From an uncultured Gammaproteobacteria bacterium (GTDB lineage Bacteria; Patescibacteriota; Patescibacteriia; Magasanikbacterales; GWA2-37-8), in contig CAZBWU010000001.1 in NCBI GenBank assembly GCA_964496095.1, forward strand, positions 185,474 through 249,473: 64,000 bases of DNA, given 5' to 3'. Below are positions 18,178-63,912 of the stretch, piece after piece (the stretch's first letter is position 1; each line of letters begins with the position of its first letter). The notes under the pieces are model-generated. The model was not told where the DNA came from, did not search any database, and was given only the letters and a program-made list of their open reading frames with translations. The position numbers and the translations under genes were made by a program.

Positions 18178-18316
18178 TGTCATTCTGAGCTGAGCGAAGA
18201 ATCTCTGTCCGTGCAATTGTCATTCCCGCCAAAGCGGAAATCCAGACAATTTAAACACTGGATTCCCAATCAAGTTGGGAATGACAGAGATCCTTCGGCT
18301 ACGCTCAGGATGACAG
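18178..18316. repeat. Composite/nested copy of TGTCAT-TIR miniature element family (inner copy 18218-18286 with perfect 10-bp TIR TGTCATTCCC/GGGAATGACA)
   Basis: TGTCATTCTGAGC..GAAGAATCTCTGTCC module, then TGTCATTCCC...GGGAATGACA, then GAGATCCTTCGG...CTCAGGATGACAG; same modules recur at 11 other sites in the window. Confidence 0.8.
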
Positions 18317-21883: not shown

Positions 21884-23022
21884 TTATCAATCTTCCAATT
21901 TGGATCAGCGGTTATTTTATTCCAAGAAGTAAATTCTTTTTTTAGTGCATGGTGGTATCCAGCTGTGGCAATCATCGCGCCGTTATCCATGGCGTATTTT
22001 AATTCCGGAATTTGGAAACTAATTTCAGGGAATCTTTTGGTTATTTCTGTGGCTAAGGTTTCACGCAGTTTTTTGTTGGCGCTCACACCCCCACCTAAAA
22101 TAATAGTTTTGGGTTTATGCTCTTGCGCGGCTAGCATAGTTTTGACTACCAGTACATCAATAATTGCTTGTTCAAAACTAGCGCAAAAATCATTGATAGA
22201 AATGTTTGTGGCGACTTGTTTGTCATTCTGAGGAAGAGAAGCGATAGAAGAATCTATTCCTTTTAATTGAGATTGATTTGTTGTTTCGTTTAGGGTTGTA
22301 GGTAAAATGTGGTTATCCCTTAACCAATAAAGCGCTGAAGTTTTTAATCCTGAGAAACTAAAATTATAATCACCGCTATTTATCATCGGTCTAGGAAAGT
22401 TTATAGCATCAGTTTTGCCCTCTAAGGCAAGTTTGGAAATTTGTGGTCCGCCAGGATAGGTGAGGCCAATTAGTTTGGCCACTTTATCAAAACATTCACC
22501 AGCGGCGTCGTCTTTGGTAGAGCCAAGTATTTTGTAATCACCATGATTCTTCATGAGAATTAATTCGGTGTGTCCGCCACTAACGATTAAGGCTAGAGCC
22601 GGGAAATATATTTTTTTACTGTCATTCTGAGGGAGAGAAGCGGCTGAAGAATCTCTGTCTTGGATTTGTGTGGAGTATATGTGTCCTTCAATATGGTTGG
22701 TAGAAACAAGTGGAATATCCCAAGCATAAGAAAGAACGCGCGCGGCCTCAACGCCTACGAGCAGTCCCGTAATGAGTCCTGGCCCAGAAGTGACAGCTAT
22801 GGCGTCTGGCTTTGGTTGGTTTTCGAGCACTGCCTCAATAAGTGGGACGATTTTTTCCGCATGCATACGTCCAGCAATTTCTGGAACCACACCGCCATAT
22901 TTTTTATGCACATCAATTTGGGAAGCGGTTTTTTCTGATAAAACAAAACAGCCTTTGTCCGAACAATCGAGCAAGGCAATAGACGTGTCATCACAAGATG
23001 ATTCAATACCGAGGATTAGCAT
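21880..23022 (-). CDS. tsaD: tRNA N6-adenosine threonylcarbamoyltransferase TsaD
   Basis: 380 aa; MLILGIESSCDDTSIALL start, HxEGH metal motif (NHIEGHIY), SGGV..N motifs; contains two in-frame repeat-element insertions. Confidence 0.9.
   Translation of the reverse strand: MLILGIESSCDDTSIALLDCSDKGCFVLSEKTASQIDVHKKYGGVVPEIAGRMHAEKIVPLIEAVLENQPKPDAIAVTSGPGLITGLLVGVEAARVLSYAWDIPLVSTNHIEGHIYSTQIQDRDSSAASLPQNDSKKIYFPALALIVSGGHTELILMKNHGDYKILGSTKDDAAGECFDKVAKLIGLTYPGGPQISKLALEGKTDAINFPRPMINSGDYNFSFSGLKTSALYWLRDNHILPTTLNETTNQSQLKGIDSSIASLPQNDKQVATNISINDFCASFEQAIIDVLVVKTMLAAQEHKPKTIILGGGVSANKKLRETLATEITKRFPEISFQIPELKYAMDNGAMIATAGYHHALKKEFTSWNKITADPNWKIDN
22221..22260. repeat. TGTCAT-TIR element module, in-frame inside tsaD
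   Basis: TGTCATTCTGAGGAAGAGAAGCGATAGAAGAATCTATTCC; encodes extra peptide ...GIDSSIASLPQNDKQ... in TsaD. Confidence 0.8.
22620..22659. repeat. TGTCAT-TIR element module, in-frame inside tsaD
   Basis: TGTCATTCTGAGGGAGAGAAGCGGCTGAAGAATCTCTGTC; encodes extra peptide ...QDRDSSAASLPQNDSKK... after the HxEGH motif. Confidence 0.8.
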
Positions 23023-25169: not shown

Positions 25170-25186
25170 TCTCCCTAGCGAAATTT

Positions 25187-25216: not shown

Positions 25217-25342
25217 ACAATCATGAAAAGCATCCAAAAGTGATGAAATTTTATTCCCTAGGTTTAATAGCAAGTCCTCTTTACTAAGGACTATATTTTA
25301 GCTATTATAAATAAAGTTTACTTATCCATTTATATTTATAAT

Positions 25343-25936: not shown

Positions 25937-25979
25937 CTTGATTTTTTATATATTAGGTAAGAGATTTGATCATTTACAG

Positions 25980-26009
25980 AAAAGTTTGCCACCTGTCTCG
26001 ATTAACCCT
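25980..26009. repeat. Cassette-boundary direct repeat copy B (AAAAGTTTGCCACCTGTCTCGATTAACCCT)
   Basis: 44 nt after stop of 25343-25936. Confidence 0.8.
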
Positions 26010-26026
26010 ACATAAACAGAAACCAC

Positions 26027-27037: not shown

Positions 27038-27039
27038 AT

Positions 27040-27069
27040 AAAAGTTTTCCACCTGTCTTGATTAACCCT
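27040..27069. repeat. Cassette-boundary direct repeat copy C (AAAAGTTTTCCACCTGTCTTGATTAACCCT)
   Basis: 3 nt after stop of 26159-27037. Confidence 0.8.
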
Positions 27070-27110
27070 GTAAAATAAAAAACACCCCGGTTAATCCAAG
27101 ATGTTTTTTG
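27058..27110. terminator. Bidirectional terminator-like hairpin between convergent genes
   Basis: CTTGATTAACC ... GGTTAATCCAAG inverted repeat (the 3' end of repeat C forms the left arm) followed by TTTTTT at 27104-27109. Confidence 0.45.
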
Positions 27111-29548: not shown

Positions 29549-29645
29549 ATGGTAAAAATTAAGAAAAAGATTAATATTTTGAATATTAACATCGAATTGT
29601 ATATTAAAATAGGGTTATTGTCAACCTTAACTATGTCCCCCCGAT

Positions 29646-29675
29646 AAAAGTTTGCCACCTGTCTTGATTAACCCT
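29646..29675. repeat. Cassette-boundary direct repeat copy D (AAAAGTTTGCCACCTGTCTTGATTAACCCT)
   Basis: 98 nt beyond the start codon of the minus-strand NHL gene, same orientation as copies A-C. Confidence 0.8.
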
Positions 29676-29795
29676 ATAACAGCAAAAAATTGAACTCTTT
29701 TATTTTTCTTATAATCTGTTAAACTTACTGAGTACGCGCTTACTTATTTGGGAATACTAAACTGCATTTTAGTATTATCATTTTTTATTTCATAT

Positions 29796-46934: not shown

Positions 46935-47675
46935 TTATTTTAAAGTATCTAAGTTAATAGCATTAGTTAGTAAGTAGTCACCAATCTGAGTACGAACCAA
47001 TTCTTGGCAAAAGGCGCCGGTGCCAAGCTTTTGGCCAAGGTCGTGAGCAAGGGTCCGGATATATGTTCCTGCCGAACATTGTACCTCTATTTTTAAAACA
47101 GGCCAAGTGTAATCCAAAAGTTTAATTTCATAAATTTCTATCTCGTTTGGTTGGCGTTCTACTTCTATGCCTTTGCGGGCGAGGGTGTATAATCTTTGGC
47201 CGTTTATTTTTTTAGCAGAAAACATCGGCGGGATTTGGAGTTGTTTGCCTGTAAAAGATTTTATTGCCTCTAGGATTTGCTCTTCGGTTATTGTTTTTGG
47301 GTTATTCGTTTTTTCTATTTTTCCAGTTTTGTCGTAAGTATCGCTAGTTTCTCCGAATTTGATGGTGGCAATATAAATTTTTTTCATTCTTTTAAATTCG
47401 TCTAAGTTTCTGGTAGATTCTCGTCCAACGCCGATAATTAATAATCCAGTGGCAAAAGGATCAAGTGTTCCTGCATGACCGACTCGGAGTTTTTTTGGGC
47501 TGTTATTCTGAGGCTCTGCCGAAGAATCCCTTTCGTTTGGTTTTAAGGGATCCTTTACGGAGTTTATCCCCTTTGGGGGGTTCAGGATGACACCGTTCCT
47601 AACTTTATTACGTACAAAAGCTACAGCATCAAAGCTGGTCCAACCTTCGGGTTTGTTGATGAGTAGGAATGACAT
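46935..47675 (-). CDS. truB: tRNA pseudouridine(55) synthase TruB
   Basis: 246 aa; catalytic motif GHAGTLDPFATG; contains an in-frame repeat-element insertion upstream of the catalytic Asp region. Confidence 0.88.
   Translation of the reverse strand: MSFLLINKPEGWTSFDAVAFVRNKVRNGVILNPPKGINSVKDPLKPNERDSSAEPQNNSPKKLRVGHAGTLDPFATGLLIIGVGRESTRNLDEFKRMKKIYIATIKFGETSDTYDKTGKIEKTNNPKTITEEQILEAIKSFTGKQLQIPPMFSAKKINGQRLYTLARKGIEVERQPNEIEIYEIKLLDYTWPVLKIEVQCSAGTYIRTLAHDLGQKLGTGAFCQELVRTQIGDYLLTNAINLDTLK
47501..47592. repeat. TGTCAT-TIR element copy, in-frame inside truB
   Basis: TGTTATTCTGAGGCTCTGCCGAAGAATCCC...GGGATCCTTTACGG...TTCAGGATGACA; encodes extra loop ...ILNPPKGINSVKDPLKPNERDSSAEPQNNSPKK... 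in TruB. Confidence 0.8.
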
Positions 47676-49814: not shown

Positions 49815-49922
49815 TGTCATTCCGAACCCTTATTTTTATGGGGTGAGGAATCTATTCCTATTAAATTATAAAATAATTCAGTATAGATCCCTCGTCGGCT
49901 ACGGCCTCGCTCGGGATGACAA
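49815..49922. repeat. TGTCAT-TIR element copy (intergenic infB-trxA)
   Basis: TGTCATTCCGAACCC...GAGGAATCTATTCC...GATCCCTCGTCGGCTACGGCCTCGCTCGGGATGACAA. Confidence 0.8.
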
Positions 49923-50411: not shown

Positions 50412-50460
50412 TGTCATTCTGAACAGAGTGAAGAATCCCTCCACTACGGTCGGGATGACA
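50412..50460. repeat. Minimal (49-nt) TGTCAT-TIR element copy immediately 5' of leuS
   Basis: TGTCATTCTGAACAGAGTGAAGAATCCCTCCACTACGGTCGGGATGACA - both termini present. Confidence 0.8.
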
Positions 50461-50469
50461 AAAAAATCT

Positions 50470-53400
50470 ATGAAGAAATACGACCCAAAAAAAATAGAAG
50501 CAAAATGGCAAAAGTATTGGGAGAAAAATAAAACTTTTGAAGTTACGGAAGATCCAAAGCGTGAGAAGTTTTATGGTTTGATTGAGTTTCCTTATCCAAG
50601 TGGGGAAGGTTTGCACGTCGGGCATCCGCGTTCAAACACAGCGATGGATGTTATTTCCCGTAAGAAAAGAATGGAAGGAAAAAATGTTTTGTTCCCGATC
50701 GGGTTTGATGCGTTTGGATTACCAACTGAAAATTTTGCAATCAAAACAGGTAAGCCACCAGCCGAAGTGACCAAAAAAAATATTGCCAATTTTACTCGTC
50801 AGCTCAAAATGCTTGGTTTTAGTTTTGACTGGTCCAGGCAAGTTGACACTACCGATCCGCAATACTACAAATGGACTCAGTGGTTATTTTTGCAATTTTT
50901 CAAACACGGACTAGCTTATAAAAAAAATCAACCGATTAACTGGTGTCCGAAAGATAAAATTGGTTTGGCTAATGAAGAAGTTGTGGGCGGTTGTTGTGAG
51001 CGGTGTGGTACGCCGGTAGAAACAAAAAATAAAGAACAGTGGATGCTCGCTATTACCAAGTATGCTGACAAGCTTTTGGCAGGCCTAAAAGATGTAGATT
51101 ATATTGAGCGCGCTCGATTGCAACAAGAAAATTGGATTGGTAAAAGTGAAGGCGCCGAAGTTGTTTTTCCTTTGCGTGTGTCTGGACAAGTTGACGGCAA
51201 ATACACCGTAAAAGTTTTTACTACTCGTCCTGATACTATTTTTGGCGCAACTTTTATTGCTATCTCCGCCGACTTGGCCAAGGAGTGGGTTGGAGCTGGT
51301 TGGAGTCCAAGCGAAGAAATAAAAAATTATATTACTGAAGTTTTAAAAGTCCGCACTACGACCAACACTCGTGAAGAGCAAGAAAAAACTGGAGTCAGTG
51401 CTGGGGTAATGGCTATCAATCCAGTTTCAAAAGAAGAAATTCCAGTTTGGATTACCAATTATGTAATGGGTGGAGTAGGCACGGGTGCGATTATGGGAGT
51501 ACCAGCGCACGATGAACGCGATTTTGATTTTGCGAAGAAGTTTGGCTTGTCTGTTAAGCAAGTAGTAAAAAATCTAAATGAAAAACCAAAGTATTTAGTT
51601 TTTGATTTTGATGGGGTGATTGGGGATACGATTGAAGAGGGCGTTAAGGTAAATATGGCTCTTGATACAATTTCTGAAGAACAAGCAAGAAAAAATATAC
51701 ATGAGTATTTTAGCAGGAAGCCAAGCCATGCAAAGGGCCATACTTTGACTGATGATGAGTTAGAGAAGAGAGCTGATTGGATAAAAAGGTATGGTGAAAT
51801 AATGTTTAAATTAAACCCACCTCTGTTTGATGATTTTATTAAGGCTATAAAAAATATATCAAACATAAAGATTGCGGTAATTTCCGCCGGTTCAGGTTTG
51901 TATATCAAAAATCGTATGCCTGAGACTGATTTAAACCCGACTCATGTTTTGACATACGAAGACCACCATTCAAAGGAACAAAAAATCGAGCAGGTATGTA
52001 AGGATTGGGGAGTGTCTATGCAAGATGTATATTATTTTACTGATACCAAAGCGGATGTCTATGAACTAGAAAATTGCTTAGATAGAAAAAAAATTATTGG
52101 TTGTGCTTGGGGTTATTCCGGTTATGATGGTTTGCGTGAACTTTTGCCGGAAAATCAAGTGTTGAAAAATTTTACTGATATAAATAATCTGTTTACAGAT
52201 GGACCGTATACCGAAGATGGTGTAGCGGTTAATTCCGATTTTCTCAATGGTCTAAAAACAGATGAAGCTAAAATAAAAATGATAAGTTGGTTGGAAGAAA
52301 ATAAAATTGGTAAGAAACAAATAAATTATAAACTACGTGATTGGGTATTTTCTCGCCAGCGTTATTGGGGTGAGCCGATTCCACTTGTATATTGTGAAAA
52401 ATGTGCTGGCTGGATTCCGCTACCTGAGAGCGAACTACCTCTTAAACTTCCTAAAGTAGAAAAATATCAACCAACAGACAATGGCGAATCACCGCTCGCC
52501 GCCATGGAAAAATGGGTAAAGACAAAATGTCCGCAGTGTGGCGGTCCGGCCAGAAGAGAAACAGATACGATGCCAAATTGGGCAGGCTCTTCTTGGTATT
52601 TCTTGGCCTATGCTTTGGGTGGGGAAAAAGGTTTGAAAGAGAGAGGTGATAAGTTTTGGGATAAAGAATTATTAAAACAGTGGATGCCGATAGATTGGTA
52701 TAATGGGGGAATGGAACATACGGTTTTACACCTACTTTATTCTCGTTTTTGGAATATATTTTTGCATGATATTGGACTGGTGCCTACAAGTGAGCCGTAT
52801 AAAAAACGCACTTCCCACGGCATGATCTTGGCCAAAGGCGGAGAGAAGATGAGCAAGTCAAAAGGCAATGTGGTGAATCCCGATGAGATGGTAGAGCAGT
52901 TTGGCGCGGATGCCCTGCGTACCTATATTATGTTTATGGGTCCGTTTGATCAGGCAGTGGAGTGGGATACGAATGGGTTAATAGGAGTGAAACGATTTTT
53001 GGATAAGGTGTGGAATTATGCTATCGATAGATTACCTTCGGTTCCCAAGGAACGGAGGGATACAAGTGCCTTGACTAAGCTTCATCAAACAATTAAGAAA
53101 GTTAGTGAAGGTATTGATTCTATGAAATTCAATACCGCAATTGCATCGATGATGGAGTTTATGAATACTATTTATAAACCACTTGAAGATGGTAAGGTTG
53201 TTAGCGAGCCAGCGCCACTTATCGGTGAGCAAGATTTTATTAAGTTTTTAAAATTACTTTCTCCTTTTGCTCCACATATGTGTGAAGAAATTTGGAGTCA
53301 GCTTGGAAACAAAAACACTTTGGTCTTTGAACCTTGGCCAGAATACGATGAGGCCTTGACCAAAGAAAGTGAAATTACACTAGCTGTACAAGTAAATGGG

Positions 53401-53556
53401 AAATTGCGCGATACGATAACGGTACAGGCTGATATCTCGGAGGAAGAAGCAAAGAAAATAGTTTTGGCTAGTGAGAAAATTCAGAAGTGGTTGGAAGGCA
53501 AAGAACCCAAGAAAATTATTTACGTAAAAGGGAAGTTGGTGAGTATGGTTGTTTAA
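50470..53556 (+). CDS. leuS: Leucine--tRNA ligase with inserted HAD-like domain
   Basis: 1028 aa from ATG 50470 (MKKYDPKKIEAKWQKYW; ORF track start 50428 lies inside the repeat element); HIGH-region (PYPSGEGLHVGH), editing domain (TTRPDT), KMSKS; extra about 200-aa HAD-like segment between VPAHDERDFDFA and the NYKLRDW region. Confidence 0.9.
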   Translation: MKKYDPKKIEAKWQKYWEKNKTFEVTEDPKREKFYGLIEFPYPSGEGLHVGHPRSNTAMDVISRKKRMEGKNVLFPIGFDAFGLPTENFAIKTGKPPAEVTKKNIANFTRQLKMLGFSFDWSRQVDTTDPQYYKWTQWLFLQFFKHGLAYKKNQPINWCPKDKIGLANEEVVGGCCERCGTPVETKNKEQWMLAITKYADKLLAGLKDVDYIERARLQQENWIGKSEGAEVVFPLRVSGQVDGKYTVKVFTTRPDTIFGATFIAISADLAKEWVGAGWSPSEEIKNYITEVLKVRTTTNTREEQEKTGVSAGVMAINPVSKEEIPVWITNYVMGGVGTGAIMGVPAHDERDFDFAKKFGLSVKQVVKNLNEKPKYLVFDFDGVIGDTIEEGVKVNMALDTISEEQARKNIHEYFSRKPSHAKGHTLTDDELEKRADWIKRYGEIMFKLNPPLFDDFIKAIKNISNIKIAVISAGSGLYIKNRMPETDLNPTHVLTYEDHHSKEQKIEQVCKDWGVSMQDVYYFTDTKADVYELENCLDRKKIIGCAWGYSGYDGLRELLPENQVLKNFTDINNLFTDGPYTEDGVAVNSDFLNGLKTDEAKIKMISWLEENKIGKKQINYKLRDWVFSRQRYWGEPIPLVYCEKCAGWIPLPESELPLKLPKVEKYQPTDNGESPLAAMEKWVKTKCPQCGGPARRETDTMPNWAGSSWYFLAYALGGEKGLKERGDKFWDKELLKQWMPIDWYNGGMEHTVLHLLYSRFWNIFLHDIGLVPTSEPYKKRTSHGMILAKGGEKMSKSKGNVVNPDEMVEQFGADALRTYIMFMGPFDQAVEWDTNGLIGVKRFLDKVWNYAIDRLPSVPKERRDTSALTKLHQTIKKVSEGIDSMKFNTAIASMMEFMNTIYKPLEDGKVVSEPAPLIGEQDFIKFLKLLSPFAPHMCEEIWSQLGNKNTLVFEPWPEYDEALTKESEITLAVQVNGKLRDTITVQADISEEEAKKIVLASEKIQKWLEGKEPKKIIYVKGKLVSMVV

Positions 53557-53916: not shown

Positions 53917-55545
53917 ATGCTCAAGGAGGGGCTAGAACAAATCATCAAGAGCAAAAGTAAAACATTTCTCGCGTTTTGTTTTTGTTTTATTTTAGGCGCA
54001 GGTATTTTTTCTTTGTTTGAAGGCAAAGAATTTTTGTTTTATCTCCATATTTTATTATTTGCAATTTTGTTTTTTGTTATTATCTTCTGGTCAAAAAAAG
54101 AGTATCGGTTTTATTGTCTATGTCTGTTAGTTTTTGTGTTAGGTGGAATTAGATTTTTCCTGACAATTCCTGGGAAAGATGCAGATAGGATAGATTTTTA
54201 TAATGGTAGTAAAAAGATTATTAAAGGGTTTGTGGTGCGTGAACCGGATATTGGAGTAAGTGATGCGAGGTATGTGGTGCGGGTAGAAGCAATCGCTAAT
54301 CAGCCTGTCATTACGATGACGAAGGAGGAATCTCTGTCCAAATCAAAAATTAGACAGAGATCCCTCCGGGGCGTAAACCCCACTCAGGATGACAATCAGA
54401 GAGAGCGAGCCTCGGGAAATATTATGATTAAGACGTTAATTTATCCCGAATATAAATATGGCGATCAATTGGAAGTTAGTTGCCTTCTTCAAGAACCAAC
54501 AAATTTTGCAGATAGTGATTTCAATTATAAAAAATATCTAGCCAAACAAGATGTGTGGTCAACTTGTGCCAATCCGCAAATAAAAAAGGTGGGTGCAGGT
54601 AAAGGCAATTTTTTTATCAGTGCAATGTTGAAAATGAAAAGTAGAATAACTTTGCAGATGGCCAAACTTTGGCCTGAGCCAAGCAATAGTCTGATGGCCG
54701 GGATTTTATATGGCGCTCGCAGCGGTTTGCCCGATGATTTAACAACTAATTTTAGTCGTACGGGTGTGACTCATATTGTCGCTGTTTCCGGATATAATGT
54801 GAGTATCATAGTTGTAGTTTTAAATTCAATTTTAATTTATCTTGGATTATTTCGTAAACAATCTTTTTGGTCCTTAGTATTTTTGATTTTAGCCTTTGTC
54901 TTTTTCACTGGCGCTACCGCTTCGGTCGTGCGAGCGGGAATAATGGCGGTGATTGTTTTATTGTCTCAATATTTGGGTCGGCTATCGGCGGTGGGTAGGG
55001 TACTTGTCTATGCGGTTGTGGTGATGCTTATTTTTAATCCCTATCTGTTGATGTGGGATGCGGGCTTTCAGTTATCATTCCTGTCTACTTTGGGGTTGGT
55101 TTATTTGGTGCCTATTTTTGAGCCATTGACTGAAAAGATAAAAGTGACTGGTACTAGCGTGATGTTACTTGAAGTTTTTACGACCACGATGGCTGCGATT
55201 ATGGCTACTATGCCGTTAATTATGCATCAGTTTGGGAGGTTTTCGGTGGTGGCGCCTTTAGTAAATATTTTGGTTTTGTGGATTATTCCTTGGCTGATGT
55301 TGTTTGGGTTTTTGTCTTTGATTTTAAGCCTTGTATTTTTTCCGTTGGGTCAGCTGGTTGCCTGGGTGGCGGGTTTGGGAGTACGATATGTTATAATTGT
55401 TGTAGATTGGTTTGGAAATAAAAGTTGGAGTGCGGTTGATATGAAGATTTCTTTATTAACGATGATATTTATTTATCTCGTACTTATACTTTTTGTCACC
55501 AAAAAGTATCAAAAAGTGTTGGGGCGGCAGAACTCGCCTCATTAA
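53917..55545 (+). CDS. comEC: ComEC/Rec2 competence channel protein (membrane part; DUF4131 + competence domain)
   Basis: 542 aa; many TM helices; competence-domain signature region GILYGARSGLPDDL...TGVTHIVAVSGYNVSII; carries in-frame repeat-element insertion. Confidence 0.8.
   Translation: MLKEGLEQIIKSKSKTFLAFCFCFILGAGIFSLFEGKEFLFYLHILLFAILFFVIIFWSKKEYRFYCLCLLVFVLGGIRFFLTIPGKDADRIDFYNGSKKIIKGFVVREPDIGVSDARYVVRVEAIANQPVITMTKEESLSKSKIRQRSLRGVNPTQDDNQRERASGNIMIKTLIYPEYKYGDQLEVSCLLQEPTNFADSDFNYKKYLAKQDVWSTCANPQIKKVGAGKGNFFISAMLKMKSRITLQMAKLWPEPSNSLMAGILYGARSGLPDDLTTNFSRTGVTHIVAVSGYNVSIIVVVLNSILIYLGLFRKQSFWSLVFLILAFVFFTGATASVVRAGIMAVIVLLSQYLGRLSAVGRVLVYAVVVMLIFNPYLLMWDAGFQLSFLSTLGLVYLVPIFEPLTEKIKVTGTSVMLLEVFTTTMAAIMATMPLIMHQFGRFSVVAPLVNILVLWIIPWLMLFGFLSLILSLVFFPLGQLVAWVAGLGVRYVIIVVDWFGNKSWSAVDMKISLLTMIFIYLVLILFVTKKYQKVLGRQNSPH
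54306..54394. repeat. TGTCAT-TIR element copy, in-frame inside comEC
   Basis: TGTCATTACGATGACGAAGGAGGAATCTCTGTCC...GACAGAGATCCCTCCGGGGCGTAAACCCCACTCAGGATGACAA; encodes ...EESLSKSKIRQRSLRGVNPTQDDNQ... Confidence 0.8.
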
Positions 55546-58727: not shown

Positions 58728-59948
58728 ATGTCAGAGATAACAAAAGCAATTCAGATGTTATGCGAGGAAAAAGGTCTTTCTACCGAATCGGTCATGGAGG
58801 CAATTGAGTTTGCTTTAGCTGCTGCTTATCGCAAAGATTTTGGTAATAAACAGCAAAATATCAAAGTGCAATTCAATCCAGAAAACGGCGATATGAAAGC
58901 TTGGGATGTCAAAACGGTAGTAGAGGATATTTCTGAAGAAGATCTAGAAGCAGCTCAGACCGAGCTTGCAGCGCGACGTGAAAAAGCCAAGGAAGAAAAA
59001 AGAGAGTTGACTGAAGAAGAAACTGCGGATTTGGTTCACTTTAATCCAAAAACAGAATTGATGATTACCTCTGCCAAAGAGATTGATAAGAAAGTAAAAT
59101 TGGGAGAGGTGATGGAAATTCCTTTGGAGATTACCCATGAGTTTGGTCGTATGGCTGCTCAGACTGCCAAGCAGGTAATTATCCAAAAAATCCGTGAAGC
59201 GGAAAGAGGTATCATGTTTAATGACTTCAAAGGCCAAGAAGGCCAATTGGTTATGGGTACAATTCAGCGCGCTGAAGCTCGCAAAGTTTTGGTTGATTTT
59301 GGTAAAGTGACCGGTGTATTGTTAGCTGATCAACAAAATAGCCGTGATAGATATAAACCAGGCGCTCGCATGAAGTTTTATTTATTATCTGTACAGATGA
59401 GTCCTCGCGGACTTGAGGTTCTATTGTCTCGCAGTGATGTGGGTATGGTTCGTGAAATTTTCAAACAAGAAATTCCTGAAATTAATGATGGTCTAATAGA
59501 AATAAAAGGTGTGGCTCGTGAAGCCGGTTTCCGTTCCAAAGTATCTGTCTCAACCAATGACAAATCTATTGATCCAATCGGATCTTGTATCGGTCAAAGA
59601 GGTAGTAGAATAAACACTATTATTGAAGAGTTGGGCGGAGAAAAGATTGATATTATTCAGTATAGTGAAAATACGGCTGAATATATTGCTCACGCTTTGG
59701 CGCCAGCAAAAATCTTGAATGTAAAATTAGATGAAGCTAATAAAGTGGCGGAAGTGAGTGTGGCTGCCGATCAATTTTCTTTAGCCATTGGTCGTAGCGG
59801 ACAAAATGTACGTCTCGCTGCTGATATGACTGGTTGGAGAATAGATGTGGTTGAAGATGGAGGTAAGCAGGAACTATCCAGTGATGAAGTGAAAGCGGAA
59901 GAAGTCGCTCCTGAAGTTGTTGAGGTAGAAGAAAAAAAGGAGGAGTAA
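58728..59948 (+). CDS. nusA: Transcription termination/antitermination protein NusA
   Basis: 406 aa; N-terminal RNAP-binding domain, S1 domain, two KH domains (GxxG: IGQRGSRI, IGRSGQNV), acidic tail. Confidence 0.92.
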   Translation: MSEITKAIQMLCEEKGLSTESVMEAIEFALAAAYRKDFGNKQQNIKVQFNPENGDMKAWDVKTVVEDISEEDLEAAQTELAARREKAKEEKRELTEEETADLVHFNPKTELMITSAKEIDKKVKLGEVMEIPLEITHEFGRMAAQTAKQVIIQKIREAERGIMFNDFKGQEGQLVMGTIQRAEARKVLVDFGKVTGVLLADQQNSRDRYKPGARMKFYLLSVQMSPRGLEVLLSRSDVGMVREIFKQEIPEINDGLIEIKGVAREAGFRSKVSVSTNDKSIDPIGSCIGQRGSRINTIIEELGGEKIDIIQYSENTAEYIAHALAPAKILNVKLDEANKVAEVSVAADQFSLAIGRSGQNVRLAADMTGWRIDVVEDGGKQELSSDEVKAEEVAPEVVEVEEKKEE

Positions 59949-59968: not shown

Positions 59969-60062
59969 TGTCATCCCGAGCGAGCCCTCAAGGGCGACGA
60001 GGGATCTTTCCGAGAAAGAGTTCTACTAACGGAAAGATTCTTCACTCCGTTCAGAATGACAG
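59969..60062. repeat. Full-length (94-nt) TGTCAT-TIR element copy (intergenic nusA-yidC)
   Basis: TGTCATCCCGAGCGAGCCCTCAAGGGCGACGAGGGATCTTTCCGAG...CGGAAAGATTCTTCACTCCGTTCAGAATGACAG; about 94 percent identical to 62676-62768. Confidence 0.85.
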
Positions 60063-60080
60063 TTAACCATTAACTTCTCT

Positions 60081-60833
60081 ATGTTTGCTCTCTTTCATAC
60101 TGTTCTCTATTTGCCAATTTTTAATCTTTTTGTTTGGTTGTACAATGTTATTCCCGGACATGATGTTGGTTTGGTAATTTTGGCGATTACTATTTTAGTT
60201 CGCTTAGCTTTATATCCGCTCACTAGCGCCTCTATCAAATCACAGCGTGCGTTACAAGATTTACAACCAAAAATGGCGGCTATCAAATTGCAATATGCGG
60301 ATGATAAGCAAAAGCAGACTCAGGCTATAATGGAAATGTATAAAAATAACAAAGTTAATCCGATGGCTTCCTGTTTACCGATGCTTATTCAGTTGCCAAT
60401 TTTGATTGCTCTTTATCAGGTTTTACAAGACGGATTACATTCCAAAAATTTGGTTGATTCTCTCTATCCGTTTATCCACAACCCAGGCACTATCAGTCAA
60501 ATCTCTCTTGGGTTTTTGAATATGGCTTCTCCTAATACGGTTTTGGCAATTTTAGCTGGTGCCGCCCAATTTTTCCAAGCTAAAACCATGATGAGAAAAT
60601 CTCCGCCAGCGCAAGCAGGCGAAGGCGCTAAAGATGAAGCGATGATGGCAATGATGAATAAACAAATGCTTTATCTTATGCCGGTAATGACTGTAATAAT
60701 CGGGTTTAAATTACCGGGTGGTTTGACTCTGTATTGGTTCTTCGGCACATTGTTGATGGTGTTGCAGCAAATACTTCTTACTAAAAAAAATACGCCTAAA
60801 GATGGAGTGATTGAGGGCGAACTCGTTAAATAA
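60081..60833 (+). CDS. yidC: Membrane protein insertase YidC/Oxa1 family (short form)
   Basis: 250 aa; 5 TM core with conserved region KMAAIKLQY...MEMYKNNKVNPMASCLPMLIQLPILIALY. Confidence 0.88.
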   Translation: MFALFHTVLYLPIFNLFVWLYNVIPGHDVGLVILAITILVRLALYPLTSASIKSQRALQDLQPKMAAIKLQYADDKQKQTQAIMEMYKNNKVNPMASCLPMLIQLPILIALYQVLQDGLHSKNLVDSLYPFIHNPGTISQISLGFLNMASPNTVLAILAGAAQFFQAKTMMRKSPPAQAGEGAKDEAMMAMMNKQMLYLMPVMTVIIGFKLPGGLTLYWFFGTLLMVLQQILLTKKNTPKDGVIEGELVK

Positions 60834-60862
60834 TTAGTAGTCGGCATTAGGCAAATACGCGT

Positions 60863-61126
60863 ATGATAATTAATCTTCAAAAATTTTTACGCTTGCCGGT
60901 GTATACGGAATCAGGTATTAAGCTTGGTAAAATTGTTGATTTTGAAATGGATGTTGATAGTCAGACAGTGGTGCGATATTATGTTCGGCCAATTTTGTTT
61001 AGTGTAAAATCTTTTCTGATTCAGAATAGCCAAATCAAAGAAATTAAGGATGATAAGATAGTAGTCTATGATAGTGTTGTTTCCGACTATCAAGGCAAAA
61101 CTTCGGGTATGGCTTTAGAAGAGTAA
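60863..61126 (+). CDS. PRC-barrel domain protein (YlmC/YmxH-like)
   Basis: 87 aa; LPVYTESGIKLGKIVDFEMD pattern typical of small PRC-barrel proteins. Confidence 0.5.
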   Translation: MIINLQKFLRLPVYTESGIKLGKIVDFEMDVDSQTVVRYYVRPILFSVKSFLIQNSQIKEIKDDKIVVYDSVVSDYQGKTSGMALEE

Positions 61127-61131
61127 AATCT

Positions 61132-62187
61132 ATGAATACTTCCGACTCTTTGCAATTATCGCTAAAAAAAACTTTGGCCTATTTTGATTTAGCTAATTTC
61201 CCATTGACCAAAGAAGAGTTGTATAATTTTTTGTGGGAACCGCCACAGGTTAGTTACGCTGAATTCCTGTTGTCATTGCGAGACTACACCTTTGGTGAAG
61301 GCGAAGCAATCCCACTGTTTGGTAGTGCTAACAATGGGATTGCCGCGTCGTCTCAAAAAATTGGGACTCCTCGCAATGACACAGTGAAGTCGTTCATGAT
61401 GACAGAGCAAAATGGTTATTATTTTTTATCTGGCAGAGAAGAATTGGTTGAGACCAGGCGTTGTCGGTTGCTTATTTCTGAAAATAAATTAAAGATTGCG
61501 CGTCGAGCGGCTAGGATAGTACGGTCCGTGCCATTTTTAAAAGCGATTTTTGTCTGCAATACTGTAGGTGCGGAGCAGGCAACAGAGGATAGTGATATTG
61601 ATTTTTTTATTGTAACTGAAAAAAACAGGATTTGGATTGCCCGATTGTGGGTGACTTTTTTGTTAGGACTTTTTAGATTAAGGCGAGTAAATAATCGCAT
61701 TAAGAATAAAATTTGTTTGAGTTTTTATGTGACGGCCGATAGTCTGAATCTGGCGAATTTAAGAGTGGTTGATGACGATATTCACTTTGCTTATTGGATT
61801 AATCAGATGTTACCACTATATGACCCAGAAAATTATTATGCCAAATTTTTACAAGCCAATAGTTGGACAAAAAAATATTTGCCTAATATAAAATCTGAGA
61901 AAATGAGTTCGTATATTTTTAAGATTAGCGAATCAAAGTTAGGCAGAGTTTGGAAAAGAGCTTGGGAAAAAATGTGGACTGGCGCTTATGGTGATTTGAT
62001 TAATGGTGAAGCTAAAAAAATTCAGATTTCAAAGATGAAGTTTTCCGGCAAGAAAATAGTTAGGGGAGAAGATAAGGGTGTAGTTATTTCTGATCAGATT
62101 TTGAAGTTTCACGAAAAGGATACAAGGTTGGAATATAGAGAGGCTTGGTTAAATAAAGTTAATGTTATTCCGAACGAAGGAGCTTGA
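61132..62187 (+). CDS. Hypothetical protein with Pol-beta-type nucleotidyltransferase motif
   Basis: 351 aa; G[AS]x9-13 DxD pattern (VGAEQATEDSDIDFFIV). Confidence 0.4.
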   Translation: MNTSDSLQLSLKKTLAYFDLANFPLTKEELYNFLWEPPQVSYAEFLLSLRDYTFGEGEAIPLFGSANNGIAASSQKIGTPRNDTVKSFMMTEQNGYYFLSGREELVETRRCRLLISENKLKIARRAARIVRSVPFLKAIFVCNTVGAEQATEDSDIDFFIVTEKNRIWIARLWVTFLLGLFRLRRVNNRIKNKICLSFYVTADSLNLANLRVVDDDIHFAYWINQMLPLYDPENYYAKFLQANSWTKKYLPNIKSEKMSSYIFKISESKLGRVWKRAWEKMWTGAYGDLINGEAKKIQISKMKFSGKKIVRGEDKGVVISDQILKFHEKDTRLEYREAWLNKVNVIPNEGA

Positions 62188-62200
62188 GCGATTGAGTTGA

Positions 62201-62300
62201 GCCTGCCTGCGGTAGGCAGGGAATCCCTTAAACACGGTATTTGCAATTACTATGCATAAGGGATCTTTCGACTCAGCTAAAGCCTCGCTCAAGATGACAA
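62201..62300. repeat. Hairpin (CCTGCC..GGCAGG) plus TGTCAT-TIR element module (intergenic)
   Basis: GGGAATCCCTTAAACA...ATAAGGGATCTTTCGACTCAGCTAAAGCCTCGCTCAAGATGACAA; same module as 63218-63304. Confidence 0.75.
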
Positions 62301-62307
62301 CAAACGT

Positions 62308-63801
62308 ATGATTCTTAAAAAAATAGAAAATTTATTATTGTTAGCCTTTTTGTTTTTATTGCCTTGGCAAACTAGATATATCTGGCAGGAAGGGCAATTG
62401 AGCGGCGGGCATTGGGAGTATGGCACGTTTAGTATTTATGGGACCGAGATTTTGCTTTGGATAATTATTTTATTATTTTTTTTTCGTCATTTGTTTAATA
62501 AAGAAATGCGGCAGGGCTTTTTAACTAAAAAGAAGTTTTTTATTTTTCCAGTTATTTTTTTAGGGTTAATATGGTTGTCGCTTGGTTTCAGTGAAAATTT
62601 TTGGGTGTCATATCAGTATGTATTTAGATGGTTGGGGGCGATAGCCATGGCGATTGTGTTAACCAACCACACAAATGTCATCCCGAGCGAGCCCTCAAGG
62701 GCGACGAGGGATCTTTCCGAGAAAGAGCCTGTTAACGGAAAGATTCTTCACTCTGTTCAGAATGACAGTAAATTGTTTGCCTTATGGCTTAGCGCTGTAG
62801 TCCAAGGCCTGCTGGCAGTTTATCAATTTTTAACTCAGCATGTCTTTGCGAGTAAGTGGTTGGGAATGTCGGCGCAAGATGCGATGCAGGGCGGAGCGAG
62901 TGTGGTGGAGTTTGCAGATCAAAGATGGCTGCGCGCTTATGGTAGTTTTGGTTCGCCAAATTCTTTGGGGATATATTTGGCAGTGTTGTTAGTCTTGGGT
63001 TTTATTTTATATGTTAAAACCGAACGACCGTTTTATAAAATTTTAATTAGTGTCGGGCAATTAATTATTTTATCTGGCTTGCTGTTTTCTTTTTCTCGAG
63101 GAGCCTGGCTATCGGCTATAGTGGGCATAATTTGTTTGGCTGTCATTGTTTTTGTTGCCGGCTGTCATTCTGAGCAAGGCGAAGAATCTCTGTCCAACCA
63201 CTTGTCATTCCGACCGAAGTGGAGGAATCCCTTAAACAAAATACTTGCAAAGACGATGGATAAGGGATCCCTCGGCTTCGCTACGGTTCCGCTCGAGATG
63301 ACAATGCGAAAAGATTTTATTAAACAAGTTATTTTTATTTTAGTCTTAACTGGTTTTTGGGTAGGAATATTTTTTCCTATATTTAGCGCGCGATTTAATA
63401 TTCATAATCGGTTAGAAGTTTATTCTATCGCTGAAAGACAAAGCCAATATAAAGAATCTTTATCATTTATAAAGAACAAACCATTTTTTGGAGTAGGGCC
63501 AGCTCTCTATACATATACAGTCTCAAAAAAATATCCTAAATTAGCCTCATGGCAATTCCAGCCGGTTCATAATATTTATGTGTTGGCTGCGGTGGATTTC
63601 GGTGTTGTTTTTGTATTATTTTTGGGTTTAATTTTCTTAAGTTTAATTAAAAAAGTTTTTAAAAATAATCTTATTTTTCTTCCAGTTTTATTTACCTTGC
63701 TTATGGCCGGGCTCTTCGACCACTGGCTTTTTAGCATGTTTACAGGCCTTGTTTTTTACTGGGCTATTATTGGTTTAGGACAGGATAAGGTGAACTCTTG
63801 A
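62308..63801 (+). CDS. O-antigen ligase/polymerase (Wzy_C)-like integral membrane protein
   Basis: 497 aa; about 10 TM helices; periplasmic loop with FSRGAWLS-type Wzy_C signature; two in-frame repeat-element insertions. Confidence 0.6.
   Translation: MILKKIENLLLLAFLFLLPWQTRYIWQEGQLSGGHWEYGTFSIYGTEILLWIIILLFFFRHLFNKEMRQGFLTKKKFFIFPVIFLGLIWLSLGFSENFWVSYQYVFRWLGAIAMAIVLTNHTNVIPSEPSRATRDLSEKEPVNGKILHSVQNDSKLFALWLSAVVQGLLAVYQFLTQHVFASKWLGMSAQDAMQGGASVVEFADQRWLRAYGSFGSPNSLGIYLAVLLVLGFILYVKTERPFYKILISVGQLIILSGLLFSFSRGAWLSAIVGIICLAVIVFVAGCHSEQGEESLSNHLSFRPKWRNPLNKILAKTMDKGSLGFATVPLEMTMRKDFIKQVIFILVLTGFWVGIFFPIFSARFNIHNRLEVYSIAERQSQYKESLSFIKNKPFFGVGPALYTYTVSKKYPKLASWQFQPVHNIYVLAAVDFGVVFVLFLGLIFLSLIKKVFKNNLIFLPVLFTLLMAGLFDHWLFSMFTGLVFYWAIIGLGQDKVNS
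62676..62768. repeat. TGTCAT-TIR element copy (93 nt = 31 codons), in-frame inside Wzy-like gene
   Basis: Near-identical to intergenic copy 59969-60062; encodes ...VIPSEPSRATRDLSEKEPVNGKILHSVQNDSK... Confidence 0.85.
63163..63304. repeat. Composite TGTCAT-TIR element copy (142 nt), in-frame inside Wzy-like gene
   Basis: TGTCATTCTGAGCAAGGCGAAGAATCTCTGTCC + TGTCATTCCGACC...GGAATCCCTTAAACA...GGGATCCCTCGGCTTCGCTACGGTTCCGCTCGAGATGACAA; encodes ...CHSEQGEESLSNHLSFRPKWRNPLNKILAKTMDKGSLGFATVPLEMTMRKD... Confidence 0.85.
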
Positions 63802-63912
63802 CAGTTTTTTTCTTTGTAGTAAAATGGCTCTACAATTATCACTCGTATTTATTGAGTGATAAAAATTTATTAATTATTCGCCCCGCTGAGTAGGGCCTAA
63901 TTCATTTCGAAT

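What the first reader, a model, noticed from the sequence alone, without database searches (positions are those of the whole stretch)
59969..63304. Evidence of recent mobility: a 94-nt intergenic copy and a 93-nt in-frame coding copy are about 94 percent identical
The copy between nusA and yidC (59969-60062) and the copy inside the Wzy-like ORF (62676-62768) differ at only about 5 positions. The coding copy is exactly 93 nt, a multiple of three, whereas the intergenic copy is 94 nt. This is what one expects if only frame-preserving insertions survive in genes. The same ORF holds a second, composite 142-nt copy at 63163-63304, which is not a multiple of three and so presumably sits in frame together with target-site changes. 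The Wzy-like protein therefore carries about 78 extra residues derived from the element.
Basis: seen in the sequence. Interest (0 to 1): 0.7.

Follow-up and report, generated by a model that had tools for sequence, protein, structure and literature searches.

The report
Selfish palindromic repeats inside CPR genes
The two near-identical 93/94-nt sequences are real copies of a short hairpin-forming repeat family (TGTC-tagged REP doublets, the kind first seen as "palindromic elements" in Rickettsia) that litters this small candidate-phyla-radiation genome and is translated in frame inside several housekeeping genes; the kind is known, its presence and density in this phylum apparently is not.

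Summary
59969-60062 and 62676-62768 share 89 of 93 aligned bases plus a 1-nt gap. Every other element pair in the window is at most 70% identical. They belong to about 13 copies of one modular family in 64 kb. Each module has an unpaired TGTC tag and a hairpin stem that starts A-T and is followed by a covarying triplet. Two inverted modules plus a spacer form a 50-140-nt palindrome. There is no target-site duplication, and none of the 54 ORFs has a transposase domain. Seven or eight insertion sites lie inside genes (TsaD, TruB, ComEC, an unknown protein, Wzy), all in frame.

The nearest syntenic relative (about 90% nt identity) has no module in 21 kb. Another relative has different elements at four of the same sites. 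Among 119 Wzy homologues, about a quarter carry such inserts in each of the same two loops.

Architecture, tag, dimer form and encoded peptides (VIP.., CHSE.., SFR.., ..ND, ..MT) match the CGTC/TGTC-tagged REP superfamily of Di Nocera 2013, which includes Rickettsia RPE-4 and RPE-6. This is a new member of a known kind. The span-length argument and the "142 nt" inference do not hold.

The parts
59969..60062 (+). E8: intergenic 'type A' doublet between nusA and yidC. The left module GTCATCCCGAGCGA[GCCCTCAAGGGC]GACGAGGGATC carries a 12-nt mini-hairpin. It is followed by the central stem TTTCCG..CGGAAA and the right module GATTCTTCACTCCGTTCAGAATGAC.
   Evidence: RNA fold -38.6 kcal/mol, z = -4.6. 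The site is empty in L001 and in the P0004 contig.
62676..62768 (+). E11: coding 'type A' doublet, in frame in loop 1 of the Wzy-family ORF (31 codons, 62677-62769).
   Evidence: The insert is a low-confidence coil between helices 98-123 and 147-184 in the AF2 model. Its junction differs from that of the elements in the same loop of L001, L002 and L005.
63163..63202 (+). E12: solo left module (TGTCATTCTGAGCAAGGCGAAGAATC) plus TCTGTC and a spacer, in frame in Wzy loop 2. It is 82% identical to the left part of the nested element at 18178.
   Evidence: (D6, D7).
63203..63303 (+). E13: complete 'type B' doublet (…GGAATCCCTTAAACA…TAAGGGATC…), in frame in Wzy loop 2. With E12 it spans 141 nt, or 47 codons.
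   Evidence: (D5). Loop 2 is truly empty in L001 and L005 (21-aa loop).
62163..62299 (+). E10: 'type B' doublet with a GC-rich mini-hairpin. It overlaps the 3' end of ORF 61132-62187, supplying VIPNEGA and the stop, and fills the spacer before Wzy.
   Evidence: An orthologous copy in L002 is about 96% identical in the centre and right arm. The element is absent in L001 and L005.
61271..61381 (+). E9: homodimeric doublet of the TGC/GCA type, in frame in the unknown conserved ORF 61132-62187. It adds 34 residues.
   Evidence: Absent in L001, L002, L005, L006 and L007.
54306..54394 (+). E7: doublet in frame in ComEC (ORF 53917-55545). It adds 28 residues.
   Evidence: Absent in L001, L006 and L007.
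50412..50460 (.). E6: minimal 49-nt doublet (two modules fused, no spacer), upstream of leuS.
   Evidence: (I2, I5).
49815..49921 (.). E5: intergenic doublet between infB and the thioredoxin gene.
47501..47592 (.). E4: doublet in frame in truB (gene on the - strand). Its 31 residues lie between the NKPEGWTS and GHAGTLDP motifs.
22620..22654 (.). E3: half element (one module plus half a central stem), in frame in tsaD (- strand). It is read as DRDSSAASLPQNDS.
   Evidence: (D12).
22221..22255 (.). E2: half element, in frame in tsaD (- strand). It is read as IDSSIASLPQNDK.
   Evidence: (D12).
18178..18315 (.). E1: nested element upstream of dnaE. The outer doublet encloses an inner doublet. The inner left module, TGTCATTCCCGCCAAAGCGGAAATCCAG, has an 8-position stem with one mismatch (the DNA fold pairs only the inner 4 bp), a 4-nt loop and a CCA tail.
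   Evidence: D6, I8; -65.3 kcal/mol, z = -9.5.
62308..63801 (+). Host gene: Wzy_C / O-antigen-ligase-family membrane protein, 497 aa. Homologues without inserts are 424-432 aa.

Best explanation
The two sequences are copies of a non-autonomous, hairpin-forming repeat family of the REP/REPIN/RPE type.

**Shown: anatomy**
- The basic unit is a module of about 25 nt: an unpaired TGTC tag, a stem that begins A-T, T-A and continues with three covarying pairs, an internal G/A-rich loop, and a short tail.
- Two modules in inverted orientation, tags outward, plus a variable central stem make a 50-140-nt palindrome.
- Modules, spacers and small GC-rich mini-hairpins are reshuffled among copies.

**Shown: dynamics**
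- The family is dense here: about 13 copies, 1.7% of the window.
- It is absent from 21 kb of the nearest syntenic relative.
- It is patchily present in other relatives, so copies are gained and lost quickly.
- The E8/E11 pair is the product of a copying event younger than the split from that relative.

**Inferred: how it works**
- Copies probably spread as single-stranded DNA hairpins, copied or moved in trans.
- The agent is most likely an HUH/Y1-type enzyme of the kind that mobilises REPINs, or template switching at replication forks. No such gene lies in the window.
- Insertions land anywhere. Selection then removes those that break genes.
- The termini are stop-free in five of six frames and the elements are short. 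Insertions that keep the phase and fall in permissive surface loops therefore survive and are translated as disordered linkers.
- This explains why two loops of Wzy, and loops of TruB, TsaD, ComEC and KsgA, are hit again and again in different lineages.
For: **Pair identity and outlier status.**

**Family and structure**
- The terminal motif occurs 19 times against 0.9 expected.
- TGTYAT-NNN-GA occurs 28 times. In 19 cases rc(NNN)+AT follows within 55 nt, against 1.3 for random triplets. Six different triplets are used, which is covariation.
- Doublets fold significantly better than shuffled sequence, with z between -3 and -9.5 for 8 of the 9 folds; the exception is a partial-element fold (z = -1.4).
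- Single modules fold as a free tag plus a 5-bp stem.

**Mosaicism.** The type-A left module occurs at only two other public loci. Each time it is joined to a different right half, once in frame in a MiaA-like gene.

**Presence/absence**
- L001 is 90-91% nt identical in nusA, yidC and the unknown ORF, and has 0 modules in 21 kb.
- L005 and L007 also have none. L002 has 12 modules in 16.6 kb and L006 has 6 (three doublets).
- The E7 and E9 insertions are window-specific.

**Age.** Four-fold sites differ by 32% between the window and L001, against about 5% between E8 and E11.

**Frame filter**
- All genic copies are open.
- The intergenic twin has TAA in the frame used in Wzy.
- Genic sites are depleted relative to 92% coding density.

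**Recurrent hits.** Of 119 Wzy homologues, 30 have at least 28 aa in loop 1 (mode 18-19) and 31 have at least 30 aa in loop 2 (mode 21). The inserts are of many types, frames and junctions.

**Loop location.** Both inserts are low-pLDDT coils between helices.

**Other hosts.** The same peptide type occurs in unrelated proteins elsewhere, for example five times in P0125 (DUF2341) and once in P0136.

**Match to a known kind.** The CGTC REP superfamily is described with the tag variant TGTC, stems starting A-T, head-to-head dimers, 20-100-bp spacers, intragenic dimers encoding 20-30 aa, and no linked transposase. Its peptides include VIPAKAGI, CHSRESGNP, SFPRKRES, DSRFRGND and IPAFAGMT, in hosts including TruB, DnaE and KsgA.
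Against: - No mobilising enzyme was found. None of the 54 window ORFs has a transposase, recombinase or HUH domain, and the rest of the genome could not be examined.
- No target-site duplication or constant target sequence was found. The integration chemistry is unknown.
- At nusA-yidC the window and L002 share exact junctions but have different interiors. In Wzy loop 1, L001 and L005 carry 48-nt decayed versions. Some similarity between copies may therefore come from replacement or conversion at already occupied sites rather than new insertion.
- Translation of the inserts is inferred from intact frames only. No expression or peptide data were available.
- The AF2 model is of modest quality (mean pLDDT 61, 20-sequence alignment).
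Confidence: 0.7

Rival explanations
1. Concerted evolution rather than transposition. Both sites were already occupied by older family members, and one copy overwrote the other recently by gene conversion or template switching. The conserved termini served as homology, so no new insertion took place.
For: - The nusA-yidC site in L002 has the same left and right junctions as the window but a different interior.
- Wzy loop 1 holds element-derived sequence in L001, L002 and L005 and in many distant homologues.
- Modules are mosaic among copies.
- Nested and composite arrangements occur (E1, E12/E13).
Against: - The E11 left junction lies 8 codons from the junction used in L001, L002 and L005. It is not a simple overwrite of that resident copy.
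- The nusA-yidC site is empty in the closest relative and in the P0004 contig.
- The shared termini are only about 13 nt long.
- E7, E9 and the loop 2 insert lie in sites that are truly empty in relatives. De novo insertion therefore does occur in this lineage.
Confidence: 0.15
2. A classical DDE-transposon-derived MITE. The 13-nt imperfect terminal inverted repeats TGTCATYCYGAGC are bound by an IS-encoded transposase elsewhere in the genome, and the element moves by cut-and-paste.
For: The elements have terminal inverted repeats, are small, are non-coding on their own, and are dispersed in many copies.
Against: - None of the 13 copies has a target-site duplication.
- Solo modules and half elements are common.
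- Each terminus is itself a hairpin with internal covariation, as in REPs and not as in a simple protein-binding TIR.
- Left and right modules usually differ (heterodimers).
- No IS with these ends lies in the window or in 100 kb of related loci.
Confidence: 0.08
3. Host-selected functional elements. The intergenic copies would act as RNA hairpins that stabilise or punctuate operon mRNAs. The genic copies would be selected linker peptides, for example variable surface loops of Wzy.
For: - The intergenic copies lie between co-directional genes and fold stably as RNA.
- The terminus ATGACA resembles a -35 box. A promoter-like match at 60056-60085 lies just upstream of yidC.
- The same two Wzy loops are expanded in a quarter of homologues.
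Against: - The nearest relative functions without any copy in the same operon.
- The encoded peptides differ by frame, orientation and subtype, so no peptide is conserved.
- No T-run terminators accompany the hairpins.
- The inserts are predicted to be disordered.
Confidence: 0.05
4. Assembly artefact: repeat-induced chimeric joins placed repeat copies inside genes.
For: None directly. Repeats are a known source of MAG misassembly, and reads were not available.
Against: - All genic copies keep the frame and are flanked by colinear, conserved gene sequence.
- An independent assembly (L002) has orthologous copies at four of the same sites.
- Dozens of independently assembled Wzy homologues carry such inserts.
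Confidence: 0.02

Closest known systems
CGTC-tagged REP superfamily (Di Nocera, De Gregorio and Rocco 2013, BMC Genomics 14:522, PMC3733652). It includes Rickettsia conorii RPE-4 and RPE-6.
   Same: - An unpaired tag at one end. The paper states that CGTC is changed to TGTC in many repeats.
- Stems that almost always start with A-T, T-A.
- Predominantly head-to-head dimers, with spacers of 20-100 bp.
- Heterodimers are common.
- Intragenic singlets and dimers encode about 8-30 aa.
- Identical peptide signatures in the same frames: VIP.., CHS.., SF.R.., ..ND, ..MT. Homologue P0028 even reads VIPAKAGIQ…DSRFRGND.
- Hosts such as TruB, DnaE and KsgA.
- No linked transposase.
   Different: - The major module type here has only a 5-bp perfect stem, followed by a G/A internal loop and 1-2 further pairs. 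The described families have 8-9 bp.
- The tail is C plus pyrimidines rather than CCA, except in the inner module of E1.
- Loops are often expanded by inserted GC-rich mini-hairpins.
- The host phylum (Patescibacteria/CPR) is not among the five phyla listed.
- The genic share is much higher (7-8 of 12 sites).
Rickettsia palindromic elements (RPE; Ogata et al. 2000, Science 290:347, as summarised in PMC10969869)
   Same: - Palindromic elements of about 100-150 nt in a small, reduced genome.
- Inserted in frame in many unrelated housekeeping genes, and thought to be tolerated on protein surfaces.
- The mobilising enzyme is unknown.
   Different: - Sequence relationship to RPE-1 was not tested, because no Rickettsia sequence was available here.
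- The elements here are clearly modular doublets of short tagged hairpins.
- RPE translation has experimental support; translation here is inferred.
REPINs mobilised by RAYT transposases (Bertels and Rainey 2011, PMC3116915)
   Same: - The replicative unit is two inverted REPs plus a spacer, forming a hairpin in ssDNA or RNA.
- Singlets are remnants of doublets.
- Spacer sequence is free, while its pairing is kept.
   Different: - REPINs carry a GTAG tag and are almost exclusively extragenic (14 of 1,067 16-mers overlap genes in SBW25).
- They are linked to a single-copy RAYT gene flanked by REPs.
- Here the tag is TGTC, more than half of the sites are genic, and no RAYT was seen.
Bacterial MITEs such as Correia elements or Nezha (recalled from own knowledge; the general class is reviewed in PMC10969869)
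   Same: Short, non-autonomous and dispersed, with terminal inverted repeats. Occasional in-frame fusions with host ORFs.
   Different: MITEs derive from a recognisable IS and usually make target-site duplications. Neither feature is seen here.

Membership tests
CGTC/TGTC-tagged REP superfamily | Unpaired tetranucleotide tag CGTC (variants TGTC, CCTC) at one end of the hairpin | tested here: met
   All 19 module hits of the scan also pass the scan, which requires a T before GTYAT, so the tag is TGTC. DNA folds of three of the five single modules tested leave GTC unpaired.
CGTC/TGTC-tagged REP superfamily | Stem of 8-9 bp whose first two pairs are A-T and T-A | tested here: inconclusive
   AT/AT as the first two pairs is met in every module. 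The continuous stem is only 5 bp (AT plus a covarying triplet). It is followed by a G·A/A·G internal loop and 1-2 more pairs in the major type. The inner module of E1 has 8 stem positions with one mismatch.
CGTC/TGTC-tagged REP superfamily | Loop of 4-5 nt and a 3-nt unpaired tail close to CCA | tested here: inconclusive
   The inner module of E1 (TGTCATTCCCGCCAAAGCGGAAATCCAG) has a 4-nt loop and a CCA tail. Most other modules have 3-5-nt loops, or loops expanded by mini-hairpins, and tails of the form C[CT][CT].
CGTC/TGTC-tagged REP superfamily | Mostly head-to-head dimers with 20-100-bp spacers; heterodimers frequent | tested here: met
   10 of the 13 window copies are doublets with the tags outward, and spacers range from 0 to about 60 nt. 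The left and right triplets differ in all but E9.
CGTC/TGTC-tagged REP superfamily | Intragenic units translated in frame, giving peptides such as VIPAKAGI, CHSRESGNP, SFPRKRES, DSRFRGND, IPAFAGMT | tested here: met
   The window gives VIPSE…QNDS, CHSEQGEES, LSFRPKWRNP and …LEMT. Homologues give VIPAKAGIQ…DSRFRGND and SFPPQAGIQ…AAGMT.
CGTC/TGTC-tagged REP superfamily | No dedicated transposase gene flanked by the repeats | not testable with these tools
   None of the 54 ORFs in the window has such a domain. The rest of the genome is not available.
REPIN-RAYT system | GTAG tag cleaved by a RAYT (HUH/Y1) transposase encoded by a single-copy gene flanked by REPs | tested here: not met
   The tag is TGTC, not GTAG. 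No Y1_Tnp-like ORF lies in the window or in the annotated related loci. Genome-wide absence could not be tested.
REPIN-RAYT system | Doublet of inverted REPs plus a spacer that folds as one hairpin; extragenic location | tested here: inconclusive
   The doublet-hairpin architecture is met. Extragenic location is not met: 7-8 of 12 sites are genic.
Rickettsia palindromic elements (RPE) | Palindromic element of about 100-150 nt, inserted in frame in many unrelated genes of one genome | tested here: met
   Five of 54 genes in the window carry in-frame copies: TsaD, TruB, ComEC, the unknown ORF and Wzy.
Rickettsia palindromic elements (RPE) | Sequence homology to RPE-1 to RPE-10 consensus sequences | not tested
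   No Rickettsia sequence was at hand. The only link is indirect: the paper equates RPE-4 and RPE-6 with CGTC REPs.
MITE (IS-derived) | Terminal inverted repeats plus a fixed-length target-site duplication, and a cognate autonomous IS | tested here: not met
   Terminal inverted repeats are present. No consistent direct repeat flanks any of the 13 copies. No cognate IS was seen.

The most novel reading that the evidence does not exclude
A TGTC-tagged REP/RPE-type family may be active now in a lineage of tiny CPR genomes. Syntenic sister genomes of about 90% nt identity either teem with it (the window; L002, GCA_964363685.1) or lack it entirely over more than 20 kb (L001, L005, L007). If the difference reflects gain or loss of a single mobilising gene, comparing these roughly 1-Mb genomes could identify the enzyme that moves CGTC REPs and Rickettsia-type palindromic elements. 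That enzyme has been unknown since 2000 and 2013. The E8 to E11 pair would serve as a fresh donor-target example.
Probability: 0.25. Interest if true: 0.7.

Novelty: new member of a known kind. Interest (0 to 1): 0.42.

Why it matters
This shows that the "selfish DNA inside protein-coding genes" phenomenon, classically tied to Rickettsia, is also common in a candidate-phyla-radiation lineage.

- About 9% of the genes in this window carry translated repeat-derived linkers.
- A quarter of Wzy-family homologues carry such linkers in each of the same two loops.

Practical consequences:
- Such inserts inflate and fragment protein families.
- They create spurious "hypothetical" ORFs.
- They confuse homology searches and length-based quality checks in CPR metagenome bins.

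Conceptually, element-rich and element-free sister genomes offer a clean comparative test for the still unknown mobilisation mechanism of CGTC-type REPs.

Tried and rejected
- **Rfam.** A scan at gathering thresholds found only two tRNAs and no RNA family at any copy.
- **Target-site duplications.** None is consistent. One 5-nt ATCAG repeat flanks E7 with an offset.
- **A TGTC target.** I tested whether elements insert 3' of a pre-existing TGTC or TGTCAT in the host. The empty alleles at E9 (TTGTCATTG in L002) and at nusA-yidC (TTGTC in L001) look that way. The empty alleles at E7, Wzy loop 2, E10 and L006 ksgA do not. I left this as a lead, not a rule.
- **Near-identical type-A copies elsewhere.**
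  - The left-module pattern found only two loci in genome contigs, and the same two in metagenome contigs.
  - A 40-aa peptide query found nothing.
  - The source genome itself is not in the collections, so a genome-wide census and tree were impossible.
- **Intrinsic terminators.** There is no hairpin-plus-T-run at E8 or E10.
- **Transposase in the window.** None was found.
- **Profile search with the insert peptide.** It returned only 21 hits. Two of the six hits I read are coiled-coil false positives (P0121, P0123), and short profiles lack power.
- **Literature.** Searches for such elements in CPR, Patescibacteria or Parcubacteria found nothing relevant. A sequence-string search returned only primers.

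Full report
**1. The observation**

I aligned 59969-60062 (94 nt, between nusA and yidC) with 62676-62768 (93 nt, inside the Wzy-family ORF). The alignment has 89 matches, 4 mismatches and one 1-nt gap. The first 52 nt are identical and the last 40 nt are 95% identical. Three of the four substitutions and the indel lie in the central loop.

- NusA at 58728-59948.
- YidC/60KD_IMP at 60081-60833.
- A PRC-barrel protein at 60863-61126.
- A conserved unknown ORF at 61132-62187.
- Wzy_C at 62308-63801.

The best homologues are O-antigen-ligase-family proteins of Candidatus Magasanikbacteria and other Patescibacteria. The window therefore comes from a CPR bacterium, with 38% G+C. In Wzy the copy is read as VIPSEPSRATRDLSEKEPVNGKILHSVQNDS. 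A second insert is read as CHSEQGEESLSNHLSFRPKWRNPLNKILAKTMDKGSLGFATVPLEMT.

**2. The family**

The pair belongs to a family.
- GTCATYCYGASC, allowing one mismatch, occurs 19 times against 0.9 expected.
- Reading the hits and scanning for modules gives about 13 elements, totalling 1,119 nt.
- Locations:
  - 18178-18315 is a nested element upstream of dnaE.
  - 22221 and 22620 are half elements inside tsaD.
  - 47501-47592 lies inside truB.
  - 49815-49921 is intergenic.
  - 50412-50460 is a minimal 49-nt form.
  - 54306-54394 lies inside comEC.
  - 59969-60062 is the intergenic twin.
  - 61271-61381 lies inside the unknown ORF.
  - 62163-62299 supplies that ORF's last seven codons and its stop.
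  - 62676-62768, 63163-63189 and 63203-63303 lie inside Wzy.

**3. Anatomy**

Each end is a module of 25 nt or more: TGTC, then AT, a triplet, GA(G/A/C)C…GA, the complementary triplet, AT, then C.

I took all 28 occurrences of TGTYAT-NNN-GA. In 19 of them the reverse complement of NNN followed by AT lies within 55 nt. Random triplets give 1.3. Six triplet types are used: TCT, TCC, CCC, CCT, CTT and TGC. This is covariation of a short stem.

Three of the five single modules tested fold as a free GTC tag plus a 5-bp stem, an internal loop and two further pairs, but not better than shuffled sequence; only the inner module of E1 beats its shuffles (z = -3.2). Whole doublets fold well, at -35 to -65 kcal/mol with z between -3 and -9.5; a fold covering only part of E4 was not significant (-28.7 kcal/mol, z = -1.4).

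The left and right modules of one element usually carry different triplets, making heterodimers. Many modules are expanded by GC-rich mini-hairpins such as GCCCTCAAGGGC in type A. No direct repeats flank the copies. No T-run terminators accompany them. Rfam has no match.

**4. Is the pair special, and how recent is it?**

Among ten full-length elements, E8/E11 are 95% identical. All other pairs are at most 70% identical.

The type-A left module exists in the two large public collections at only two other loci, both from the same groundwater study. Each time it is joined to a different right half. One of these copies is in frame in a MiaA-like gene. Modules therefore recombine.

Syntenic loci from relatives were recovered.
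- L001 is the closest: nusA 91%, yidC 90% and the unknown ORF 91% nt identity. It has no module in 21 kb, a 21-nt nusA-yidC spacer and a 5-nt spacer before wzy.
- L005 and L007 also have none.
- L002 has 12 modules in 16.6 kb, and L006 has three elements.

Four-fold degenerate sites differ by 32% between the window and L001, against about 5% between E8 and E11. The copying event behind the pair is therefore clearly younger than the split from the nearest sampled relative. The inserts in ComEC (28 aa) and at 61271-61381 (34 aa) are absent from every relative examined.

**5. Complications for a simple "new insertion" story**

L002 has elements at four of the same sites as the window.
- At the unknown-ORF/wzy junction, the two copies are about 96% identical in the centre and right arm. 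That is higher than the flanking gene, at 83%.
- At nusA-yidC, the junctions are the same but the interiors are unrelated.
- In Wzy loop 1, L002 carries another element with a junction 8 codons upstream. L001 and L005 carry 48-nt sequences that look like decayed minimal elements, for example GTCgTTCTGAG…TCAGAGAAcGACA.

Sites are thus re-used and interiors are replaced. Loop 2 in L001 and L005 is truly empty.

**6. The frame argument**

Read in the Wzy frame, the intergenic twin runs into TAC-TAA. The 1-nt deletion and three substitutions in the loop remove the stop and join the open left-arm frame to the open right-arm frame.

Spans between the conserved termini are not informative, however. 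E11 is 92 or 93 nt, and E12+E13 is 141 or 142 nt, depending on whether one flanking base is counted. Net gains relative to empty alleles are 84, 102 and 135 nt for spans of 89, 111 and 141 nt.

The termini are open in five of six frames, because ATGAC contains TGA in one frame. Whole elements have one to four open frames out of six, usually one or two.

With 91.7% of the window coding, 7-8 genic sites out of 12 is a significant deficit (P = 0.002-0.014). This is as expected if most genic insertions are purged.

**7. Recurrence**

I aligned 119 Wzy homologues.
- Loop 1 is 18-19 residues in 64 of them, and at least 28 residues in 30.
- Loop 2 is 21 residues in 52 of them, and at least 30 residues in 31.
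- The inserts differ in type, frame and exact junction. Examples are VILSKAKNPLNQNERDSSVASLPQNDR, VIPAKAGIQSPVNLDSRFRGND, CHSERSRAESKNPLN…, SFPPQAGIQ…AAGMT, and a second repeat type, VISPLPRGSEEGVAE….

In an AlphaFold2 model (mean pLDDT 61), both inserts are low-confidence coils between helices of higher confidence. A profile of the insert peptide finds the same peptide in unrelated proteins elsewhere: five times in a 999-aa DUF2341 protein and once in a 342-aa protein. It also returns some coiled-coil false positives.

The simplest reading is a high insertion rate combined with a few permissive loops.

**8. What it is**

Di Nocera et al. 2013 (PMC3733652) define a CGTC-tagged REP superfamily with these features:
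- The tag is often TGTC.
- Stems almost always start with A-T, T-A.
- There is a short tail.
- Head-to-head dimers predominate, with 20-100-bp spacers.
- Heterodimers are frequent.
- Intragenic singlets and dimers encode up to 20-30 aa.
- There is no associated transposase.
- R. conorii RPE-4 and RPE-6 are members.

Their table of intragenic units lists VIPAKAGI, CHSRESGNP, SFPRKRES, DSRFRGND and IPAFAGMT, in genes including truB, dnaE and the dimethyladenosine transferase gene. The window's peptides are the same three left-end and two right-end frames of the same termini. The L006 relative even has an insert in ksgA.

The fit is good on tag, AT-first stem, dimer form, intragenic behaviour and peptides. 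It is imperfect on stem length (5 bp plus non-canonical pairs, rather than 8-9 bp) and on the tail.

- In architecture it resembles REPINs, but it lacks the GTAG tag, the extragenic habit and a visible RAYT.
- In behaviour it resembles Rickettsia RPEs.
- It is not a classical MITE, because there is no target-site duplication and no cognate IS.

**9. Mechanism**

*Shown:* modular hairpins with covarying stems; mosaic copies; rapid gain and loss between close relatives; one very young pair; in-frame survival in loops.

*Inferred:* copying through single-stranded hairpin intermediates by an enzyme acting in trans, or by template switching, followed by selection on frame and position.

No enzyme candidate lies among the 54 ORFs of the window. 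The published superfamily also has none.

**10. Novelty**

The kind is known. I found no report of it in CPR or Patescibacteria in the searchable literature. That is an absence of hits, not proof. I rate it a new member of a known kind, of moderate interest. Its main value is the contrast between element-rich and element-free sister genomes, which could expose the mobilising factor.

Noticed in passing
window 50428-53556 (leuS): The leucyl-tRNA synthetase ORF carries a HAD_2 hydrolase-like domain (residues 391-544) inserted after the editing domain. The same domain mix is listed for the orthologue on the JGI contig of P0004.
   Followed up: no
window 25185-25229, 25978-26022, 27038-27082, 29644-29688: There are four copies of a ~45-nt motif, AAAAGTTTgCCACCTGTCTygATTAACCCy. 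Three lie just past the ends of ORFs without Pfam hits (24684-25169, 25343-25936, 26159-27037). One lies upstream of the NHL-repeat ORF. At least one is followed by a hairpin plus T-run. The motif is unrelated to the TGTC elements.
   Followed up: partly
window 27125-29548 (- strand): An NHL-repeat / beta-propeller protein is built from nine tandem DNA repeats of ~183-195 nt, 61-87% identical to the reference copy.
   Followed up: no
window ~63846-63872: A CIRCE-like inverted repeat, TTATCACTCGTATTTATTGAGTGATAA, lies behind a TTGACA…TAAAAT promoter upstream of groES. It is conserved in all five related loci. In L002 a TGTC doublet has inserted just downstream of it.
   Followed up: partly
window 60056-60085 and 62653-62681: The element terminus ATGACA matches 5 of 6 bases of the -35 hexamer. 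A promoter-like match (ATGACA-18 nt-TATGTT) formed by the right end of E8 lies directly upstream of the yidC start. Insertions could therefore donate -35 boxes.
   Followed up: no
Wzy homologues P0012, P0015, P0020, P0037 (loops 1 and 2): A second, different repeat-derived peptide type (VISPLPRGSEEGVAE… / …PPLTPPWKGGDDTR) occupies the same two Wzy loops in other Magasanikbacteria-like genomes. At least two unrelated repeat families therefore exploit these loops.
   Followed up: no
L001 (whole 21,284 nt), L005, L007 versus window, L002, L006: Closely related syntenic genomes either have no TGTC modules at all or have one every 3-7 kb. L001 is the window's closest relative, at ~90% nt identity, yet has none. 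The PRC-barrel gene of the window is closer to L002 (93% nt) than to L001 (89%), which hints at recombination between lineages.
   Followed up: partly
window 61132-62187: The conserved ORF between the PRC-barrel gene and wzy has no Pfam hit. It contains a GxEQATEDSDIDFFIV stretch that resembles a nucleotidyltransferase-fold motif, and it is syntenic in all relatives.
   Followed up: no
L003 2880-3120 (= L008): In the genome that holds L002, a MiaA-like gene (…ISADSRQVYKKMDIGTAK…) carries an in-frame doublet. Its left module is identical to type A of the window, and its right half matches the element in that genome's Wzy loop 1. This is a clear case of module shuffling.
   Followed up: partly
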